Positions 8,614 through 53,388 of a DNA stretch of 64,000 bases are shown here, piece by piece. The stretch is taken from NCBI RefSeq assembly GCF_054482595.1, contig NZ_CM137008.1. One strand, written 5' to 3'. Position 1 is the stretch's first letter. Each line of letters starts with the position of its first letter. Position numbers and translations under genes: made by a program. Below the pieces are notes generated by a model, which saw only the letters and a list, made by a program, of their open reading frames with translations, made no database searches and had not been told where the DNA came from.

Positions 8614-9345
8614 TCAGGCTGTTACCAAAGAAGTTGCAACCTGGCGCTCATCAGAAATAATGTGCGTTACCTCATCCAGATGCCCGATGCGGGCTTCCCC
8701 TGAACGATTAAATTTACTTTTATCAATCAATAACAACGATTGCGCGGCACGTTTTAATAGCATCGATTTGTAATCAGCGTTGATCGCATTGGAGTCCCAC
8801 AGTGCGCCGCTGCTATCGATCCCTTCACAAGAAAAAATAAACAGATCGATTTCCAGCGATTTAAGTTGGGAAATCAGCGAGGGATTGACGTAACAGCCAT
8901 ATTTGCGCTCAAGTGTGCCGCCGGAACTGATCAGTTGAATGCGTTCGCGTTTACCGAGTTCATGGCAAATCGGATGGCTATTGGTGAAGACCTGAATGTT
9001 GATGTCAGGCAACTGGCGTGCCAGATACCAGCAAGTTGAACTGGCGTCTAAGGCTATCACCATCCCTTCTTCAATCCACGCGAGCGCCTCGCGCGCGATA
9101 TCTGCTTTATGCGCATAATGGCTTTTCAGCCTGATGTGAAAGGGATCGCCACTGTCTTGATTTTGACGGTGGATATATTTAGCGCGTCCATGATTGCGCA
9201 GAATTTTACCCTGCGTCTGTAATTCATTGAGATCGCGACGAATGGTTTCTTTACTGACCTTTAGCTGTTCAGAGAGAGCTTCCGTGGTCAGGCTGGTATG
9301 GTTCAGCAGCAGGTCGACTATCGCTTGCTGGCGTGCCGCTTTCAT
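8614..9345 (-). CDS. fucR: DeoR-family L-fucose operon activator
   Basis: ORF 8614..9354; start taken at MKAARQQAIVDLL (243 aa); N-terminal HTH and DeoR C-terminal sugar-binding domain. Confidence 0.88.
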   Translation of the reverse strand: MKAARQQAIVDLLLNHTSLTTEALSEQLKVSKETIRRDLNELQTQGKILRNHGRAKYIHRQNQDSGDPFHIRLKSHYAHKADIAREALAWIEEGMVIALDASSTCWYLARQLPDINIQVFTNSHPICHELGKRERIQLISSGGTLERKYGCYVNPSLISQLKSLEIDLFIFSCEGIDSSGALWDSNAINADYKSMLLKRAAQSLLLIDKSKFNRSGEARIGHLDEVTHIISDERQVATSLVTA

Positions 9346-13161: not shown

Positions 13162-14478
13162 TCAGTTAGTTGCCGTTTGAGAGCGGAAACGGGCAAAGAT
13201 AAAGATGACCGCGAAGCAGAGTGCGGGGATCAGTTCAGCAGTGGGGATGTTGCCCGCCGCGTCACTGACAAAACCCATGACCGGAGTGACAATACCGCCG
13301 CCAATGATGGTCATAACGATGAAGGACGAACCGTATTTAGTGTCCTGGCCGAGATTCTTAATGCCCAGCGAGAAGATTGTTGGGTACTGAATCGACATAA
13401 AGGCGCTGCATAAAGTCAGGGCTATTAAGCCCACATGACCGCCAGCGAAGGCTGAGATCAGGCACAGTGCCATAGCGATTAATGCGTAGGCGGCCAGGAC
13501 TTTGTGTGGTGCGAAGCGACTGATGAGCCAGGTACCGGTGAAACGACCAATAAAGAAGCACACCATGGTTCCGGTTAAATAGTTAGCGGCAAAGCCTGCA
13601 GTCATACCTGGAATTTCTTCTACAGCGTAGCGAATCAAATAGCTCCAGCAGGCCGTTTGTGCGCCAACGTAGCAGAATTGCGCTAATACTGCCCAGCGCC
13701 AGTGGCGAATACGCGCCAGGCGAGAAAGCGATGCGGAGAACGATCCTTGTTTGGCGTCACTGTGATTATCACTCTGCAATGCCGGGAATTTCGTCAGCAT
13801 GATCAGCAGGGCGACCAGTAACACGATAGCCACGATGATCATATAAGGTGTCTGTACCGATAATACCAGGCTGTGTTTATACGCACTCAATTGCTCTGGA
13901 GACATTTTATCGAGAACGTCTTGCGATTGATGTGGCACGTTAGACAAAATAAGACTTTGCCCAAAGACAACCGCGATAATTGCGCCAAACGAGTTAAATG
14001 TTTGCGCAAGATTTAAGCGGAAGTGACCACTGCTTTCTGGCCCTAATACCGTAACAAAAGGGTTTGCGGCAGTTTCCAGACAACCTAATCCGGCTGCAAT
14101 AATAAATAGGCCAACTAAAAATAAGGTGTAGTTCATTATTTCTGCAGCGGGCCAGAATAATGCAGCGCCCAAGGCATATAAAAATAATCCGGTAATAATC
14201 CCTGCTTTATAACTGAGTTTTTTCATCAATATCCCAGCAGGGATTGGGATAATGAAATAACCAAAGTAAAAGGCCGATTGGATCAGGCCAGCCTGGAAAT
14301 TTGTCAGCGTAAAAGCCTGCTGGAATTGAGGTAATAAAATGTCGTTAAGGTTATTGGCTACCGCCCAAAGAAAAAACAGTGAGCACAGCAGCGCGAATGG
14401 AATAATGTAACTTCTGCTTTGCCCTGCATCTTTATCTACCGCACGGTAACTCTGCGTTTGTATTGATGTGTTTCCCAT
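13162..14478 (-). CDS. fucP: L-fucose:H+ symporter (MFS)
   Basis: 438-aa polytopic membrane ORF. Confidence 0.92.
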   Translation of the reverse strand: MGNTSIQTQSYRAVDKDAGQSRSYIIPFALLCSLFFLWAVANNLNDILLPQFQQAFTLTNFQAGLIQSAFYFGYFIIPIPAGILMKKLSYKAGIITGLFLYALGAALFWPAAEIMNYTLFLVGLFIIAAGLGCLETAANPFVTVLGPESSGHFRLNLAQTFNSFGAIIAVVFGQSLILSNVPHQSQDVLDKMSPEQLSAYKHSLVLSVQTPYMIIVAIVLLVALLIMLTKFPALQSDNHSDAKQGSFSASLSRLARIRHWRWAVLAQFCYVGAQTACWSYLIRYAVEEIPGMTAGFAANYLTGTMVCFFIGRFTGTWLISRFAPHKVLAAYALIAMALCLISAFAGGHVGLIALTLCSAFMSIQYPTIFSLGIKNLGQDTKYGSSFIVMTIIGGGIVTPVMGFVSDAAGNIPTAELIPALCFAVIFIFARFRSQTATN

Positions 14479-15024
14479 AGCATCCTCTTAGGTTCAGAAG
14501 CTTAAGCACGTAATCGGTTATGTTTTCAAAAGTGCAAAACCAGCGAGTTCGGGCTTCATATCAGTGAATATTTGCCTGTCTGAAATGAACTCATGGATTC
14601 ATTTTCAAATAAAAAACGCTCTGTAATATGACGGCGGTCACACTTATTAGCTGGAAGGTGACTTTATGTGACTACCATCACTTTAATAATCGAAATTTCA
14701 TGCCCGTTTCAGAAAATAAATCATAAAAAACACAAACCAGATGACCGTATTAATTGTTTATGCCGAAAACGGGCATTCCTGGCTTGAGTGAATAGAAAAA
14801 TGACCGTTTTGATAAATATTTTTAAGAGCGGTCATTTTTAATGGGGTTATAAAAAGAGAACTTGCAGTTATTTACTGTGATTAGTTGAACCAGGTCACAA
14901 AATATAAGCTTGTGAATTTCTTTCTGGTTAATCAGGAAGAAGATGGTGGGTAATTAAACGGCTAATTCAATAGTGTGAAAGGAACAACATTATTGCCCTG
15001 TTTTGAATCAGAGAGAGGTAGCTA
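14479..15024. promoter_or_regulatory. Divergent fucPIKUR / fucAO control region
   Basis: 546-bp AT-rich gap between divergent operons; contains repeated ATGACCG/CGGTCAT motifs and TGTGA/TCACA half-sites. Confidence 0.6.
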
Positions 15025-15672
15025 ATGGAACGAAATAAACTTGCTCGTCAGATTATTGACACTTGCCTGGAAATGACCCGCCTGGGACTGAACCAGGGGA
15101 CAGCGGGGAACGTCAGTGTACGTTATCAGGATGGGATGCTGATTACGCCTACAGGCATTCCATATGAAAAACTGACGGAGTCGCATATTGTCTTTATTGA
15201 TGGCAACGGTAAACATGAGGAAGGAAAGCTCCCCTCAAGCGAATGGCGTTTCCATATGGCGGCCTATCAAAGCAGACCGGATGCCAACGCGGTTGTTCAC
15301 AATCATGCCGTTCATTGCACGGCAGTTTCCATTCTTAACCGATCGATCCCCGCTATTCACTACATGATTGCGGCGGCTGGCGGTAATTCTATTCCTTGCG
15401 CGCCTTATGCGACCTTTGGAACACGTGAACTTTCTGAACATGTTGCGCAGGCTCTCAAAAATCGTAAGGCAACTTTGTTACAACATCATGGGCTTATCGC
15501 TTGTGAGGTGAATCTGGAAAAAGCGTTATGGCTGGCGCATGAAGTTGAAGTGCTGGCGCAACTTTACCTGACGACCCTGGCGATTACGGACCCGGTGCCA
15601 GTGCTGAGCGATGAAGAGATTGCCGTAGTGCTGGAGAAATTCAAAACCTATGGGTTACGGATTGAAGAGTAA
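15025..15672 (+). CDS. fucA: L-fuculose-1-phosphate aldolase (class II)
   Basis: 215-aa ORF MERNKLARQIIDTCLEM. Confidence 0.92.
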   Translation: MERNKLARQIIDTCLEMTRLGLNQGTAGNVSVRYQDGMLITPTGIPYEKLTESHIVFIDGNGKHEEGKLPSSEWRFHMAAYQSRPDANAVVHNHAVHCTAVSILNRSIPAIHYMIAAAGGNSIPCAPYATFGTRELSEHVAQALKNRKATLLQHHGLIACEVNLEKALWLAHEVEVLAQLYLTTLAITDPVPVLSDEEIAVVLEKFKTYGLRIEE

Positions 15673-49482: not shown

Positions 49483-50760
49483 TTACTTGCTGCTAGCCAT
49501 TGCGGGGGCGCTATCAGCAGTACGAATTTTTTGGAACAGCAAAAAGGTAAAGACAATCACCATGGCAAGCGCCGCCATGCCCATCAGCCACATATTGCGG
49601 TAGGCTTCTGCTGCGGGCAGGGTGTCTTGCCAGTGGCCGATAATTGGGTAAACGAAGACATCCGGCAGGAATCCAATCACCGAGCAAATACCTACCGTGG
49701 TGCCCATAATGTAAGACGGTGTTCTCGCTTCGCCAGGGCAGGCCCAGTACAGCCCGCGTGAGGCGTAACAGGTGAATCCCAGCAGTAAAATCAGGCCAAT
49801 CCCCATCGCGACCGATTGCGGGTTAGAGTTCGTGACGAGCAGGGCAGTTAACGCCAGCAGGCCGAGTACGGAAAGGATTTGGATCACGCGGGTAGGGGAT
49901 TTCACTTTGCTGTAGGTGGTGATTATGCCGCCAAGTGGGCCGCACAGCGCGCGGAAGATTTTGTTGATCACAATCCCCATGTAGCTCGCCGCCACCAGCG
50001 ACATGCCGTACATTTCGGTCAGATAGTTGGTGGAGTAACTCAGAATGGCGTAGATGGTGAAGACACCAAAAATCACCATGCTGCAATACCAGGTGGTACT
50101 GATACGCAAAACGGCCAGGATATCGCTAAGCTGGAATGACTGTTTTTCTTCGTTATTGGCACTGCGCAGGTTGTTGTTATCGCTAACAAAAAACCAGCAC
50201 AGAAGCCCCAACAAGATGTAAACCACACTGTAGATGATAATGACCGTTTTCAGGCTGGCGCTGTCATCCGGTGCAAAGCGAGAAAAGACCCACATGGTAA
50301 ACACCGCCAGCGACATTACACCGACGCCGCGCAGCCCTTCCATCCAGCCCATAATTTTCCCTTGCTCGCTATGATCGCCAAGCAACGATGCGGCTTTAAT
50401 CGACACCGACCACAGCATTAAAATCGTCGTTATCGCAAAGGCGACCTGAATACAGAGCATTACCCACAGCGGTGGATACGTTGCCATTAACAGACCCAGT
50501 AATCCGGTAATGATCATCGCGGAAGTAATCATTTTGCGATGTGAGAATTTATCAGCAATAACGCCGCTGGGGGCATAAAGAATAATAGCTGCAATACCAA
50601 AGGTACTCATTATTAAACCTATCTCGGTATTGCTGAATCCCATAAATTTCGCCATGGGAATTTGATAAATATAACGTAAATAAGCCAGGTCGAAACTAAC
50701 GCCGCCGCTAAAACTAATTATCGCGAGGGTTATCCAACGGCGATATGAGTTGTGTTGCAT
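49483..50760 (-). CDS. yqcE: MFS transporter
   Basis: 425-aa polytopic ORF upstream of and co-oriented with ygcE. Confidence 0.85.
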   Translation of the reverse strand: MQHNSYRRWITLAIISFSGGVSFDLAYLRYIYQIPMAKFMGFSNTEIGLIMSTFGIAAIILYAPSGVIADKFSHRKMITSAMIITGLLGLLMATYPPLWVMLCIQVAFAITTILMLWSVSIKAASLLGDHSEQGKIMGWMEGLRGVGVMSLAVFTMWVFSRFAPDDSASLKTVIIIYSVVYILLGLLCWFFVSDNNNLRSANNEEKQSFQLSDILAVLRISTTWYCSMVIFGVFTIYAILSYSTNYLTEMYGMSLVAASYMGIVINKIFRALCGPLGGIITTYSKVKSPTRVIQILSVLGLLALTALLVTNSNPQSVAMGIGLILLLGFTCYASRGLYWACPGEARTPSYIMGTTVGICSVIGFLPDVFVYPIIGHWQDTLPAAEAYRNMWLMGMAALAMVIVFTFLLFQKIRTADSAPAMASSK

Positions 50761-50882
50761 ATCGTATTCCCATTTGTAATAGACAAAAAAAAGAGAAAAG
50801 TAAGCCGCCCTTTCAGGTGGATTACTTTTCTCAGGTCTCTAGTAATTGAAATAATAAATAACATGGAAAGCAGAGGTGTTGT

Positions 50883-50954
50883 GTGAGAGTAATCACGCTT
50901 CTGCTTTTTAAAACTATTTGATAATGCGAATATCACACTGTGATTACGATCACA
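50883..50954. promoter_or_regulatory. Two CRP-like boxes in the yqcE/ygcW divergent region
   Basis: tgtgaGAGTAAtcacg (50883..50898) and perfect TGTGAttacgaTCACA (50939..50954). Confidence 0.55.
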
Positions 50955-51933: not shown

Positions 51934-53388
51934 ATGTCTTTATCTCGCGCAGCGATTGTCGACCAGCTAAAGGAAATTGTTGGTGCAGATCGCGTAATTA
52001 CCGATGAAACAGTATTAAAGAAGAACAGTATTGACCGTTTTCGTAAATTTCCGGATATTCATGGCATTTATACTTTGCCGATTCCGGCAGCGGTCGTAAA
52101 ACTCGGTTCCACAGAACAAGTCTCCCGTGTGCTGAATTTTATGAATGCGCACAAAATTAACGGTGTGCCGCGTACCGGTGCTTCCGCCACCGAAGGTGGG
52201 CTGGAAACTGTTGTAGAAAACTCGGTGGTGCTCGACGGCTCCGCCATGAATCAAATCATTAATATTGATATTGAGAATATGCAGGCGACGGCGCAATGTG
52301 GCGTTCCCCTGGAAGTGCTGGAAAACGCGTTGCGTGAAAAAGGTTACACCACGGGGCATTCTCCGCAGTCAAAGCCGCTGGCGCAGATGGGCGGCCTGGT
52401 AGCAACCCGCAGTATCGGGCAGTTCTCCACACTCTACGGCGCAATCGAAGATATGGTCGTTGGTCTGGAAGCAGTATTGGCTGATGGCACCGTCACACGC
52501 ATTAAAAACGTGCCACGCCGCGCGGCTGGCCCGGACATTCGTCACATCATCATCGGCAACGAAGGTGCATTGTGCTATATCACTGAAGTAACAGTGAAAA
52601 TCTTTAAATTCACCCCGAAAAACAACCTCTTCTACGGCTATATCCTGGAAGACATGAAAACCGGCTTCAACATCCTGCGTGAAATCATGGTGGAAGGGTA
52701 TCGTCCGTCGATCGCTCGTTTGTATGACGCTGAAGATGGCACCCAACACTTCACCCATTTTGCCGACGGAAAATGTGTGCTGATCTTTATGGCTGAAGGT
52801 AACCCTCGCATTGCGAAGGCGACGGGCGAAGGGATTGCGGAAATCGTTGCCCGCTACCCGCAGTGCCAGCGCGTGGACAGCAAACTGATCGAAACCTGGT
52901 TTAACAACCTGAACTGGGGACCGGATAAAGTGGCTGCCGAACGTGTGCAAATCCTCAAAACCGGCAACATGGGCTTTACCACTGAAGTGTCCGGCTGCTG
53001 GAGCTGCATCCACGAAATCTACGAAAGCGTTATTAACCGTATTCGTATCGAGTTCCCGCACGCCGACGACATCACTATGCTGGGTGGTCACTCCTCTCAT
53101 AGCTATCAGAACGGCACCAACATGTACTTCGTCTACGACTACAACGTTGTCAACTGTAAGCCGGAAGAGGAAATCGACAAGTACCACAATCCGCTCAACA
53201 AAATCATCTGCGAAGAAACCATTCGCCTCGGCGGTTCGATGGTGCACCACCACGGCATTGGTAAACATCGCGTTCACTGGAGCAAGCTGGAACACGGCAG
53301 CGCGTGGGCGTTGCTGGAAGGGCTGAAAAAGCAATTCGATCCTAACGGCATTATGAATACGGGTACTATCTATCCGATTGAAAAATAA
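51934..53388 (+). CDS. ygcU: FAD-linked oxidoreductase (FAD-binding PCMH type)
   Basis: 484-aa ORF MSLSRAAIVDQLKEIVGADRVITDE. Confidence 0.85.
   Translation: MSLSRAAIVDQLKEIVGADRVITDETVLKKNSIDRFRKFPDIHGIYTLPIPAAVVKLGSTEQVSRVLNFMNAHKINGVPRTGASATEGGLETVVENSVVLDGSAMNQIINIDIENMQATAQCGVPLEVLENALREKGYTTGHSPQSKPLAQMGGLVATRSIGQFSTLYGAIEDMVVGLEAVLADGTVTRIKNVPRRAAGPDIRHIIIGNEGALCYITEVTVKIFKFTPKNNLFYGYILEDMKTGFNILREIMVEGYRPSIARLYDAEDGTQHFTHFADGKCVLIFMAEGNPRIAKATGEGIAEIVARYPQCQRVDSKLIETWFNNLNWGPDKVAAERVQILKTGNMGFTTEVSGCWSCIHEIYESVINRIRIEFPHADDITMLGGHSSHSYQNGTNMYFVYDYNVVNCKPEEEIDKYHNPLNKIICEETIRLGGSMVHHHGIGKHRVHWSKLEHGSAWALLEGLKKQFDPNGIMNTGTIYPIEK

What the first reader, a model, noticed from the sequence alone, without database searches (positions are those of the whole stretch)
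14479..15024. Repeated ATGACCG / CGGTCAT motifs in the divergent fuc control region
ATGACCG occurs at 14741 and 14800 and its complement CGGTCAT at 14829, the latter two forming an inverted pair about 23 bp apart (aaaaatgaccgttttg...gagcggtcattttta). Further TGTGA/TCACA half-sites lie nearby. These are candidate FucR (DeoR-family) operators and CRP sites for the two divergent promoters; the exact site assignment is my inference.
Basis: partly seen in the sequence, partly recalled or inferred. Interest (0 to 1): 0.3.

Follow-up and report, generated by a model that had tools for sequence, protein, structure and literature searches.

The report
FucR and CRP sites, fuc region
The repeated ATGACCG/CGGTCAT words are binding boxes for FucR, the fucose activator, in the E. 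coli control region between fucPIKUR and fucAO; this is already published, and what this work adds is that the full five-box layout is conserved across enteric bacteria.

Summary
ATGACCG lies at 14741 and 14800 and CGGTCAT at 14829, in the 546-bp gap between E. coli fucP and fucA. CGGTCAT is the core of the FucR motif found by DAP-seq (Baumgart 2021). The 14829 copy is the validated operator OFucR3, whose mutation lowers fucAO promoter activity more than 50-fold (Zhang 2024). The nearby TGTGA/TCACA words are the published CRP sites OCrp0 to OCrp3.

The 14770 box is OFucR2, which reads CGGTCAT in K-12.

All five boxes keep the same order, orientation (- - + - +) and rigid spacing in about 30 of 43 Enterobacterales fuc regions. 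They form inverted pairs, ATGMCCG-N22-CGGKCAT. Only the linker between boxes 3 and 4 varies in length. This suggests a fucP-side module and a fucA-side module.

Chance is excluded. The hairpin reading fails because the spacers are not palindromic in other species.

One caveat: a published truncation that removes boxes 3 and 4 loses only about 30% of activity, so the pairs are not obligatory.

Novelty: already known, with a modest comparative refinement.

The parts
13162..14478 (-). fucP coding sequence (L-fucose:H+ symporter), first gene of fucPIKUR
   Evidence: 438-aa ORF. RefSeq annotation of an identical E. coli locus.
8614..9345 (-). fucR coding sequence, the DeoR-family activator that reads the boxes
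   Evidence: ORF. Pfam HTH_DeoR plus DeoRC. NCBIfam equivalog 'L-fucose operon activator', 508 bits.
14601..14606 (-). Inferred -10 hexamer of the fucPIKUR promoter (GAAAAT on the - strand). It implies a start site near 14594.
   Evidence: Inference only. It is a conserved block (T124, T125, T127 invariant or nearly so in 20 genera), and it would put OCrp0 at about -40.5. The papers that mapped the fucP start site were not held.
14624..14645 (.). CRP site OCrp0 (taaTaTGAcggcggTCACActt)
   Evidence: Sequence quoted in PMC11894529. One mismatch to the CRP core. Core invariant in 20 genera.
14664..14685 (.). CRP site OCrp1 (TGTGActaccaTCACt), 40 bp from OCrp0
   Evidence: One mismatch to the CRP core. 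Invariant core. OCrp0-OCrp1 spacing is 39-40 bp in 42 of 43 species. The paper names OCrp1 but the text I could read gives no sequence, so this assignment is mine.
14699..14713 (-). FucR box S1 (TCTGAAACGGGCATG on the - strand; core ATGCCCG 14700-14706)
   Evidence: Conserved 28-29 bp from the OCrp1 centre in 38 of 43 species. PWM score 14.1. No binding data.
14726..14735 (+). Conserved block AAAA[AC]CACA. It lies where a + strand partner of S1 (N22) would be, so it may be a diverged sixth box.
   Evidence: High conservation. Four Photorhabdus species carry a canonical CGGTCAT at this position. It lacks the CGG core, so function is unknown.
14740..14754 (-).
   Evidence: One mismatch to the published consensus. 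S1-to-S2 spacing is 41-42 bp in 30 of 30 species. PWM score 16.1.
14763..14777 (+). FucR box S3, the published OFucR2 (CCGAAAACGGGCATT here, CGGTCATT in K-12)
   Evidence: Mutation costs about 30% of induced fucAO promoter activity (PMC11011485). S2-to-S3 core spacing is 29 bp in 29 of 30 species.
14778..14798 (.). Variable linker ('hinge') between the S1-S3 group and the S4-S5 group
   Evidence: S3-to-S4 spacing ranges from 24 to 52 bp between species, while every other spacing is fixed. Indels and E. coli polymorphisms concentrate here.
14799..14813 (-).
   Evidence: Perfect match to the published 15-nt consensus, one of only two in 64 kb. Highest PWM score in the window, 20.8. S4-to-S5 spacing is 29-30 bp in 30 of 30 species. 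Not tested individually in the papers I could read.
14822..14836 (+).
   Evidence: Identical to the published operator. Mutation lowers induced fucAO promoter activity more than 50-fold. Lies 59-60 bp from the OCrp2 centre in 34 of 43 species.
14881..14902 (.). CRP site OCrp2 (ttagtTGAaccaggTCACAaaa), centred at -70.5 from the fucAO start site
   Evidence: Sequence and 350-fold mutational effect in PMC11011485. Core invariant. Position computed.
14927..14962 (+). fucAO core promoter: -35-like TTAATC (14927-14932, my inference), -10 (T)AATTAA (14950-14956), start site C at 14962
   Evidence: The start site, 63 nt upstream of the fucA ATG by 5'RACE, and the -10 aATtAa come from PMC11011485. Coordinates computed. 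The consensus promoter scan finds nothing here, as expected for an activator-dependent promoter.
14971..14992 (.). CRP site OCrp3 (tagTGTGAaaggaacaACAtta) in the fucA 5' UTR
   Evidence: Published; mutation costs about 30% of activity. Two mismatches to the CRP core. Conserved only within Escherichia.
15025..15672 (+). fucA coding sequence (L-fuculose-phosphate aldolase), first gene of fucAO
   Evidence: 215-aa ORF. RefSeq annotation.

Best explanation
The repeated words are the cores of five binding boxes for FucR. FucR is the DeoR-family activator that responds to fuculose-1-phosphate and is encoded at the end of the same regulon. The box consensus is AAACGG(G/T)CAT(T).

The boxes lie in the middle of the fucP-fucA intergenic region. 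Two CRP sites flank them on the fucP side (OCrp0, OCrp1) and one on the fucA side (OCrp2). A weaker CRP site, OCrp3, sits in the fucA leader.

When fucose is metabolised, FucR bound to inducer occupies the boxes. For fucAO, the box nearest the promoter is S5 (OFucR3, at -130). [quoted passage not shown] S3 (OFucR2) adds about 30%.

Shown in the literature: the motif (in vitro DAP-seq), and the effects of mutating S3, S5, OCrp2 and OCrp3.

Shown here:
- All five boxes are conserved in order, orientation and spacing across Enterobacterales.
- Boxes S2/S3 and S4/S5 are equivalent inverted pairs with a fixed 22-nt spacer.
- Only the S3-S4 linker varies in length.

Inferred:
- S1, S2 and S4 are real FucR sites.
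- S1-S3 together with OCrp1 and OCrp0 form the upstream activating module of the fucPIKUR promoter.
- S4-S5 together with OCrp2 form the fucAO module.
- Each inverted pair is bound cooperatively, for example by two subunits or two dimers of one FucR oligomer.
For: Locus identity: E. coli fucPIKUR/fucAO.

Regulator: FucR has HTH_DeoR and DeoRC domains and matches the equivalog 'L-fucose operon activator'.

Published data: the FucR consensus and the operators OFucR2 and OFucR3, with mutational effects of 30% and more than 50-fold (PMC11011485). OCrp2 mutation lowers activity 350-fold, and the start site lies 63 nt upstream of the ATG. PMC11894529 speaks of four FucR operators, OR0 to OR3, all between the IS5 target and fucA.

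Match to the consensus: S4 has 0 mismatches, S2 and S3 have 1, and S1 and S5 have 3.

PWM test: a matrix trained only on non-Escherichia sites puts all five boxes among the top eight hits of the 64-kb window, both strands.

Conservation:
- The five boxes recur in 47 fuc intergenic regions, from Escherichia to Yersinia and Photorhabdus.
- Box cores and CRP cores account for most of the invariant columns in a 20-genus alignment whose mean identity is 49%.
- The pattern - - + - + is found in 30 of 43 species.
- Spacings: 28-29, 41-42, 29, 29-30 and 59-60 bp, all fixed, against 24-52 bp for S3-S4.
- Without any prior motif, ACGGTCA and CGGTCAT are the most recurrent 7-mers that are not purely A/T in 17 divergent regions.

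Negative control: 19 of 34 fucA-like loci without a close divergent fucP have no box.

Module support:
- Serratia sp. DD3 has fucA behind a co-directional gene. It keeps exactly one inverted pair (N22), then 59 bp, then a CRP site.
- Edwardsiella keeps the geometry next to a transporter only 40% identical to FucP.
Against: - No direct binding data for S1, S2 or S4 were available to me. The DAP-seq paper and the older J. Bacteriol. papers are not held.
- The published truncation V6 (-206 to +30) starts at window 14819 and therefore removes both S3 and S4. It loses only about 30% of induced fucAO promoter activity. So S4 is not needed for most activation at saturating fucose, and the S4/S5 pair is not an obligatory unit.
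- The published scheme assigns S3 (OFucR2) to fucAO. My spacing argument groups S3 with the fucP side.
- The core-to-core distance of 29 bp is about 2.8 helical turns. That places paired boxes on different faces of the DNA, which is awkward for a simple symmetric dimer.
- The fucP start site used for my fucP-side positions is inferred, not read from data.
Confidence: 0.82

Rival explanations
1. Only the + strand boxes (S3/OFucR2 and S5/OFucR3) are functional FucR sites. The reader's two ATGACCG copies (S2, S4) and S1 are opposite-strand look-alikes with no regulatory role.
For: Only S3 and S5 have published mutational support. The V6 truncation, which removes S4 together with S3, costs no more than the S3 mutation alone, about 30% in both cases.
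Against: S1, S2 and S4 are conserved about as strongly as the validated boxes across some 40 species, with fixed orientation and spacing. S4 is the best match in the window both to the published consensus and to an independently trained PWM. Non-functional words would not survive in an intergenic region with 49% mean identity. Their effect on the fucPIKUR promoter has never been reported in the papers I could read, and PMC11894529 itself posits two further operators for that promoter.
Confidence: 0.08
2. Orientation model. The boxes are asymmetric, so each serves the promoter it points towards. The - strand boxes (S1, S2, S4) would activate fucPIKUR and the + strand boxes (S3, S5) would activate fucAO. 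The 22-nt pairing would then be incidental interleaving.
For: The motif is asymmetric. The two boxes shown to matter for fucAO are both on the + strand. Removing S4 adds nothing to the loss from S3.
Against: S4 is rigidly spaced to S5 and OCrp2, but variably spaced to the fucP-side elements. This is the reverse of what the model predicts. In Serratia sp. DD3 there is no divergent promoter upstream of fucA, yet the - strand partner box is kept at exactly N22. The 29-30 bp pair spacing is invariant in 64 of 68 adjacent -/+ pairs.
Confidence: 0.12
3. The 14796-14839 inverted repeat acts as a nucleic-acid structure, such as an RNA hairpin, terminator or attenuator between the operons, or a DNA cruciform, rather than as protein-binding sites.
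For: In E. coli the 44-nt palindrome folds well as RNA: -17.6 kcal/mol, z = -5.5.
Against: - It lies upstream of the mapped fucAO start site (14962) and upstream of the fucP promoter region, so neither native promoter transcribes it.
- No terminator-like site was found, and no Rfam family reached its gathering score, the only match being far below it.
- The equivalent S2/S3 pair does not fold better than shuffles (z = -0.6).
- Across species only the box cores are complementary. Mirrored spacer positions pair in just 10-50% of sequences.
Confidence: 0.02
4. The boxes are read by a regulator other than FucR, for example another DeoR-family paralogue or SrsR.
For: E. coli has many DeoR paralogues. 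A SrsR site has been predicted in the fucP leader.
Against: The motif was obtained with FucR protein in vitro, and mutating it abolishes fucose induction specifically. The same paper reports that SrsR has no effect on fucAO (abstract). The boxes track fuc loci across genera.
Confidence: 0.03

Closest known systems
E. coli K-12 FucR operators OFucR2/OFucR3 (OR2/OR3), with the FucR DAP-seq motif (Baumgart 2021; Zhang et al. 2024, PMC11011485; Zhang et al. 2025, PMC11894529)
   Same: Same locus, same regulator, same motif. Window 14822-14836 is identical to OFucR3. Window 14763-14777 is OFucR2 with one polymorphic base. The CRP sites OCrp0, OCrp2 and OCrp3 match the published sequences.
   Different: The text available to me gives sequences for only two boxes and calls two more 'putative'. 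Here five canonical boxes plus one diverged position are mapped, with orientation, pair geometry (N22) and conservation across species. At least one conserved box is therefore outside the published four-operator scheme. If the operators are numbered in order of position, the missing one is probably S4, the best consensus match.
Divergent, CRP-assisted sugar regulons with arrays of activator boxes, e.g. malEp-malKp (MalT boxes plus CRP sites), araBAD/araC, rhaSR-rhaBAD (my own knowledge, not tested here)
   Same: There is a central cluster of activator sites between two divergent promoters. CRP sites lie between the activator sites and each core promoter. Activation requires both proteins. Spacing is fixed, which suggests a defined nucleoprotein complex.
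   Different: The activator belongs to the DeoR family, not the MalT/LuxR or AraC families. The essential activator box sits unusually far upstream, at -130, and 59-60 bp from the CRP site. Direct FucR-CRP or FucR-polymerase contact is therefore not obvious.
Operators of DeoR-family repressors (DeoR, GlpR, AgaR, UlaR, SrlR) (my own knowledge, plus PMC12632272)
   Same: The regulator has the same domain architecture (HTH_DeoR plus DeoRC), the effector is a sugar phosphate, and there are multiple operators per control region.
   Different: Those proteins repress from sites that overlap or flank the -10 and -35 elements. FucR activates from boxes 109-238 bp upstream of either start site. The box sequence (AAACGGKCAT) and the 29-bp inverted pairing are specific to FucR.

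Membership tests
FucR operator (published FucR DAP-seq motif and OFucR sites) | Match to the published consensus [GA][CT][CG][AC][AG][ATC][AT]CGG[TG]CA[TA][TCG], in which CGG and CA are the most conserved positions | tested here: met
   S4 has 0 mismatches, S2 and S3 have 1, and S1 and S5 have 3, all of them in the weak 5' flank. All five keep CGGKCAT. The unconstrained positions -3 to -1 are A in 75-86% of 176 unique sites.
FucR operator (published FucR DAP-seq motif and OFucR sites) | Sequence identity with operators validated by mutagenesis | tested here: met
   14822-14836 equals OFucR3. 14763-14777 equals OFucR2 apart from a G/T polymorphism at the degenerate position. This is met for S3 and S5 only.
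FucR operator (published FucR DAP-seq motif and OFucR sites) | Located in the control region of FucR-dependent operons, with fucR present | tested here: met
   The region is the fucP-fucA intergenic region, and fucR lies at 8614-9345.
FucR operator (published FucR DAP-seq motif and OFucR sites) | Conservation of the site in orthologous control regions | tested here: met
   47 regions were scanned. The pattern - - + - + with fixed spacing is found in 30 of 43 species. Boxes are absent upstream of most fucA-like genes that lack a close divergent fucP.
FucR operator (published FucR DAP-seq motif and OFucR sites) | Physical binding of FucR plus fuculose-1-phosphate to each individual box (S1, S2, S4) | not testable with these tools
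   This needs EMSA, footprinting or ChIP-exo. The DAP-seq paper is not held.
CRP (cAMP receptor protein) site | 22-bp site with core TGTGA-N6-TCACA | tested here: met
   14627-14642 and 14667-14682 have 1 mismatch each. 14884-14899 and 14974-14989 have 2 mismatches each. That is four sites in 546 bp against about 0.24 expected from the window-wide density.
CRP (cAMP receptor protein) site | Centre at a Class I or Class II position relative to a mapped start site | tested here: inconclusive
   OCrp2 is centred at -70.5 from the 5'RACE start site, against the canonical Class I position of -71.5. OCrp0 at -40.5 and OCrp1 at -80.5 rest on a fucP start site that I inferred.
CRP (cAMP receptor protein) site | CRP-dependent expression lost on mutating the site | not testable with these tools
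   The literature reports this for OCrp0, OCrp2 and OCrp3. It was not tested here.
DeoR-family repressor operator (DeoR, GlpR, AgaR type) | Cognate regulator has HTH_DeoR plus DeoRC domains | tested here: met
   Pfam E-values of 6.6e-23 and 1.6e-45.
DeoR-family repressor operator (DeoR, GlpR, AgaR type) | Operator overlaps or abuts the core promoter, so that binding blocks RNA polymerase | tested here: not met
   The boxes lie at -130 to -259 from the fucAO start site, and at about -109 to -238 from the inferred fucP start site. FucR is an activator.
Intrinsic terminator or structured RNA element | Stable stem followed by a T-run, or a structure supported by covariation, on a transcribed strand | tested here: not met
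   No terminator-like site. No Rfam match above a gathering score. Spacer positions are not complementary across species. The region lies upstream of the mapped start site.

The most novel reading that the evidence does not exclude
The fuc control region may be a conserved, rigid array of three inverted FucR box pairs. Each pair reads ATGMCCG-N22-CGGKCAT. The + strand half of the first pair has decayed to AAAnCCACA in Enterobacteriaceae, but is still canonical in Photorhabdus. The array is split by a flexible hinge into a fucP module and a fucA module.

This would imply a DNA-binding mode not yet described for a DeoR-family activator. Oligomers would bridge half-sites 29 bp apart and act at about 60 bp from CRP, perhaps by wrapping or bending DNA to load CRP. 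The best consensus box (S4), S1 and S2 are still untested, and they may matter mainly at low inducer levels.
Probability: 0.3. Interest if true: 0.4.

Novelty: already known. Interest (0 to 1): 0.2.

Why it matters
The fuc regulon is a textbook divergent sugar regulon, and it is the model for IS5-mediated activation of fucAO during growth on propanediol. Knowing where FucR and CRP sit explains both induction and the IS5 phenotype.

The comparative map made here is a modest refinement. It shows five boxes conserved over the whole order, not the two that are sequenced in print. It shows a fixed 22-nt pair geometry and a single flexible linker. It identifies three untested boxes, including the strongest consensus match. 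These give concrete, cheap experiments on how a DeoR-family protein activates rather than represses.

Tried and rejected
- Rfam scan of 14300-15200 at E <= 1 gave only a sub-threshold match to a Staphylococcus sRNA, 20.7 bits against a gathering score of 63. Rejected.
- The sigma-70 and terminator consensus scan found nothing. That is uninformative for activator-dependent promoters, but it does exclude a terminator.
- Hairpin or cruciform reading of the 14796-14839 palindrome: it folds well in E. coli, but the spacer is not complementary in other species and the S2/S3 pair does not fold. Rejected.
- The three further ATGACCG copies inside fucP (13205, 13277, 13435) and the two in fucI (12496, 12707) do not match the extended motif, with PWM scores below 9. 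I treat them as coding-sequence coincidences.
- Isolated strong PWM hits at 50237, 52028 and 2141 lie in coding DNA. Their number is about what chance predicts for a motif of roughly 16 bits in 128 kb.
- The 15-nt published consensus with 3 mismatches allowed is non-specific: 601 hits against 654 expected. Only the searches with 0 or 1 mismatch are informative.
- Attempts to read Podolny 1999, Zhang 2010 and Chen 1989 for the fucP start site and the original CRP mapping failed because the papers are not held. The Salmonella fucose paper contains nothing on FucR sites.
- A PDB sequence search with FucR found no relative at E <= 1e-3. No structural inference about half-site spacing was therefore possible.
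- My initial prediction that S4 is as essential as S5 had to be dropped. The published V6 truncation (-206) removes S4 and keeps about 70% of activity.

Full report
**What is there**

The window is E. coli chromosome. The interval 14479-15024 matches 5,012 of 5,426 complete E. coli genomes over most of its length. In an identical record it lies between fucP (- strand) and fucA (+ strand), with fucI, fucK, fucU and fucR beyond fucP, and fucO beyond fucA. The ORFs agree: fucP 13162-14478 (-) and fucA 15025-15672 (+).

**The observation**

ATGACCG is at 14741 and 14800, and CGGTCAT is at 14829. The last two sit in perfect 11-nt inverted arms separated by 22 nt (item I1).

- Across the whole window the 7-mer is only mildly over-represented: 14 copies against 8.5 expected.
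- Three copies within 95 bp is unusual. It occurs in 54 of 20,000 random placements.
- Allowing G or T at the middle position adds cores at 14700 and 14770, giving five in 136 bp. None of 2,000 random placements, and none of 20,000 shuffles of the region, comes close.
- ATGACCG-N22-CGGKCAT occurs twice, at 14741-14776 and 14800-14835. The chance expectation is 0.00.

**What the literature already says**

Zhang et al. 2024 (PMC11011485) report the following.
- The FucR consensus obtained by DAP-seq (Baumgart 2021) is G(A)C(T)C(G)A(C)A(G)A(TC)A(T)CGGT(G)CAT(A)T(CG).
- Two operators are given with sequences: OFucR2 (CCGAAAACGGTCATT) and OFucR3 (TTAAGAGCGGTCATT).
- Mutating OFucR3 lowers fucose-induced fucAO promoter activity more than 50-fold. 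Mutating OFucR2 lowers it by about 30%.
- Four CRP sites are named. OCrp2 (ttagtTGAaccaggTCACAaaa) is essential, with a 350-fold effect. OCrp3 is accessory.
- The fucAO start site is a C, 63 nt upstream of the fucA ATG.

Zhang et al. 2025 (PMC11894529) add these points.
- OCrp0 is taaTaTGAcggcggTCACActt.
- IS5 inserts at CTAG, between OCrp0 and OCrp1.
[quoted passage not shown] The text gives no sequences for OR0 and OR1.

**Mapping the published sites onto the window**

- OFucR2 is 14763-14777.
- The two + strand ATGACCG copies are the same motif on the other strand. Read on the - strand, 14799-14813 is ATCAAAACGGTCATT. It is a perfect match to the published consensus, and one of only two in 64 kb. 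Read the same way, 14740-14754 has one mismatch.
- OCrp0 is 14624-14645, OCrp2 is 14881-14902 and OCrp3 is 14971-14992.
- A fourth CRP core at 14667-14682 fits OCrp1.
- With the start site at 14962, OCrp2 is centred at -70.5 and S5 at -130.
- The window's fucR (8614-9345) encodes HTH_DeoR plus DeoRC and matches the equivalog 'L-fucose operon activator'.

**What the comparison across species adds**

A genome scan with FucA returned 80 loci. Of these, 47 have a close divergent fucP. In those intergenic regions the boxes recur at corresponding positions, from Escherichia, Salmonella, Klebsiella and Citrobacter out to Yersinia, Hafnia, Rahnella and Photorhabdus.

In a 20-genus alignment with 49% mean identity, most invariant columns fall in a few places:
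- the Shine-Dalgarno complement next to the fucP start;
- a block I read as the fucP -10;
- three CRP cores;
- the five box cores.

OCrp3 is conserved only within Escherichia.

With no motif assumed, ACGGTCA and CGGTCAT are the most recurrent 7-mers that are not purely A/T in 17 divergent regions. A PWM trained only on non-Escherichia sites puts all five boxes among the top eight hits of the window.

**Architecture**

The orientation between OCrp1 and OCrp2 is - - + - + in 30 of 43 species. The spacings are:

| Interval | Spacing (bp) |
|---|---|
| OCrp0 to OCrp1 | 39-40 |
| OCrp1 to S1 | 28-29 |
| S1 to S2 | 41-42 |
| S2 to S3 | 29 (once 30) |
| S3 to S4 | 24-52 |
| S4 to S5 | 29-30 |
| S5 to OCrp2 | 59-60 |

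- S2/S3 and S4/S5 are thus two copies of one unit, ATGMCCG-N22-CGGKCAT. Only the linker between them is free to change length.
- Within E. coli, polymorphisms also pile up in that linker.
- Serratia sp. DD3 has fucA preceded by a co-directional gene. It keeps exactly one such pair, then 59 bp, then a CRP site.
- Edwardsiella keeps the geometry next to a transporter only 40% identical to FucP.
- A strongly conserved block, AAAA[AC]CACA (14726-14734), lies where a + strand partner of S1 would be. Four Photorhabdus species have a canonical CGGTCAT there. The ancestral layout may therefore have been three pairs.

**Mechanism**

My best reading has three parts.
- FucR bound to fuculose-1-phosphate occupies the central box array.
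- S4-S5 with OCrp2 form the fucAO module. CRP at about -70.5 recruits polymerase in the Class I manner, and FucR helps CRP, as Zhang et al. propose.
- S1-S3 with OCrp1 and OCrp0 form the fucPIKUR module.

The fucP-side positions (CRP at about -40.5 and -80.5, boxes at -109 to -179) rest on an inferred -10 hexamer, GAAAAT (14606-14601). They are not anchored to a measured start site.

**A caveat that must be stated**

The published truncation V6 (-206 to +30) begins at window 14819. It removes S3 and S4 and keeps about 70% of induced activity. S4 is therefore dispensable for most fucAO activation at saturating fucose. The pairs cannot be obligatory units; at most they add cooperativity.

An alternative is that box orientation decides which promoter is served. 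This fits the truncation result. It fits poorly with the rigid coupling of S4 to S5 and OCrp2, and with the Serratia case.

**Rivals rejected**

- RNA hairpin or cruciform. The E. coli palindrome folds well (z = -5.5), but the S2/S3 pair does not. Spacer positions are not complementary across species. The region is upstream of both promoters. There is no terminator and no Rfam match above a gathering score.
- Chance is excluded by the statistics and by conservation.
- A different regulator is unlikely, given the in vitro FucR motif and the fucose-specific mutant phenotype.

**Verdict**

The biology is already known. The added value is a five-box (possibly six-box) conserved map with fixed pair geometry, one flexible hinge, and three untested boxes, one of which is the best consensus match. 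I could not determine which boxes the literature calls OR0 and OR1. Five conserved canonical boxes exist against four published, so at least one is not in the published scheme.

Noticed in passing
window 14651-14654: The K-12 IS5 hot-spot target CTAG (-374 to -371 from the fucA ATG), whose occupation by IS5 activates fucAO, reads CTGG in this strain. The window's exact 70-mer around it (14618-14687) is present in 2,478 of 5,014 complete E. coli genomes with a match. About half of E. coli may therefore lack that target, although TTAG at 14647-14650 remains.
   Followed up: partly
window 14773, and linker 14779-14794: OFucR2 (S3) has G at the degenerate core position where K-12 has T. Other E. 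coli polymorphisms in the box region cluster in the S3-S4 linker, and all other box cores are invariant in the four haplotypes compared.
   Followed up: yes
window 14726-14735; L074, L075, L077, L082 (Photorhabdus): A strongly conserved block, AAAA[AC]CACA, lies between S1 and S2, exactly where an N22 partner of S1 would be. It lacks the CGG core in Enterobacteriaceae, but four Photorhabdus species have a canonical CGGTCAT at this position. Its function is unknown.
   Followed up: partly
window 50882-50897 and 50939-50954: A perfect CRP palindrome, TGTGATTACGATCACA, and a second site with one mismatch 57 bp away lie in the divergent yqcE (MFS transporter) / ygcW (SDR oxidoreductase) intergenic region.
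   Followed up: partly
window 50237-50253, 52028-52044, 2139-2155: Isolated strong matches to the FucR box lie inside coding sequences. One of them, at 52030-52044, is a perfect match to the published consensus. They are single and unpaired, and their number is about what chance predicts.
   Followed up: no
window 14909-14914 versus 14927-14932: The text of PMC11011485 gives the fucAO -35 as 'TTGtgA (-96 to -91)'. The only TTGTGA is at -116 to -111, which is 36 bp upstream of the -10. The hexamer with a 17-bp spacer is TTAATC (TTATTC in most genera). K-12 also has a G-to-T change at 14925 that creates TTGTTA. The printed -35 therefore seems inconsistent with its coordinates.
   Followed up: partly
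window 13205, 13277, 13435 (fucP 3' end); 12496, 12707 (fucI): Five more ATGACCG/CGGTCAT copies lie in fucP and fucI coding DNA. None matches the extended FucR motif, with PWM scores below 9.
   Followed up: yes
window 14971-14992: The leader CRP site OCrp3 is conserved only in Escherichia (the window and E. albertii). It is replaced by unrelated sequence in other genera, which is consistent with its weak (about 30%) effect.
   Followed up: yes
L029 (labelled Martelella alba), L009 (labelled Serratia marcescens): Assemblies labelled as an alphaproteobacterium and as Serratia carry Enterobacteriaceae-type fuc loci, with FucA 88-92% identical to E. coli and the full box array. The records are probably contaminated or mislabelled.
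   Followed up: no
L070, L071, L072 (Photorhabdus): In some Photorhabdus species S1, its partner and S4 have decayed (atgctcg, ctgatcat, atgactg). Only the S2/S3 pair remains canonical, and L071 also has an insertion of about 120 bp in the linker. The box array may be eroding in these lineages.
   Followed up: no
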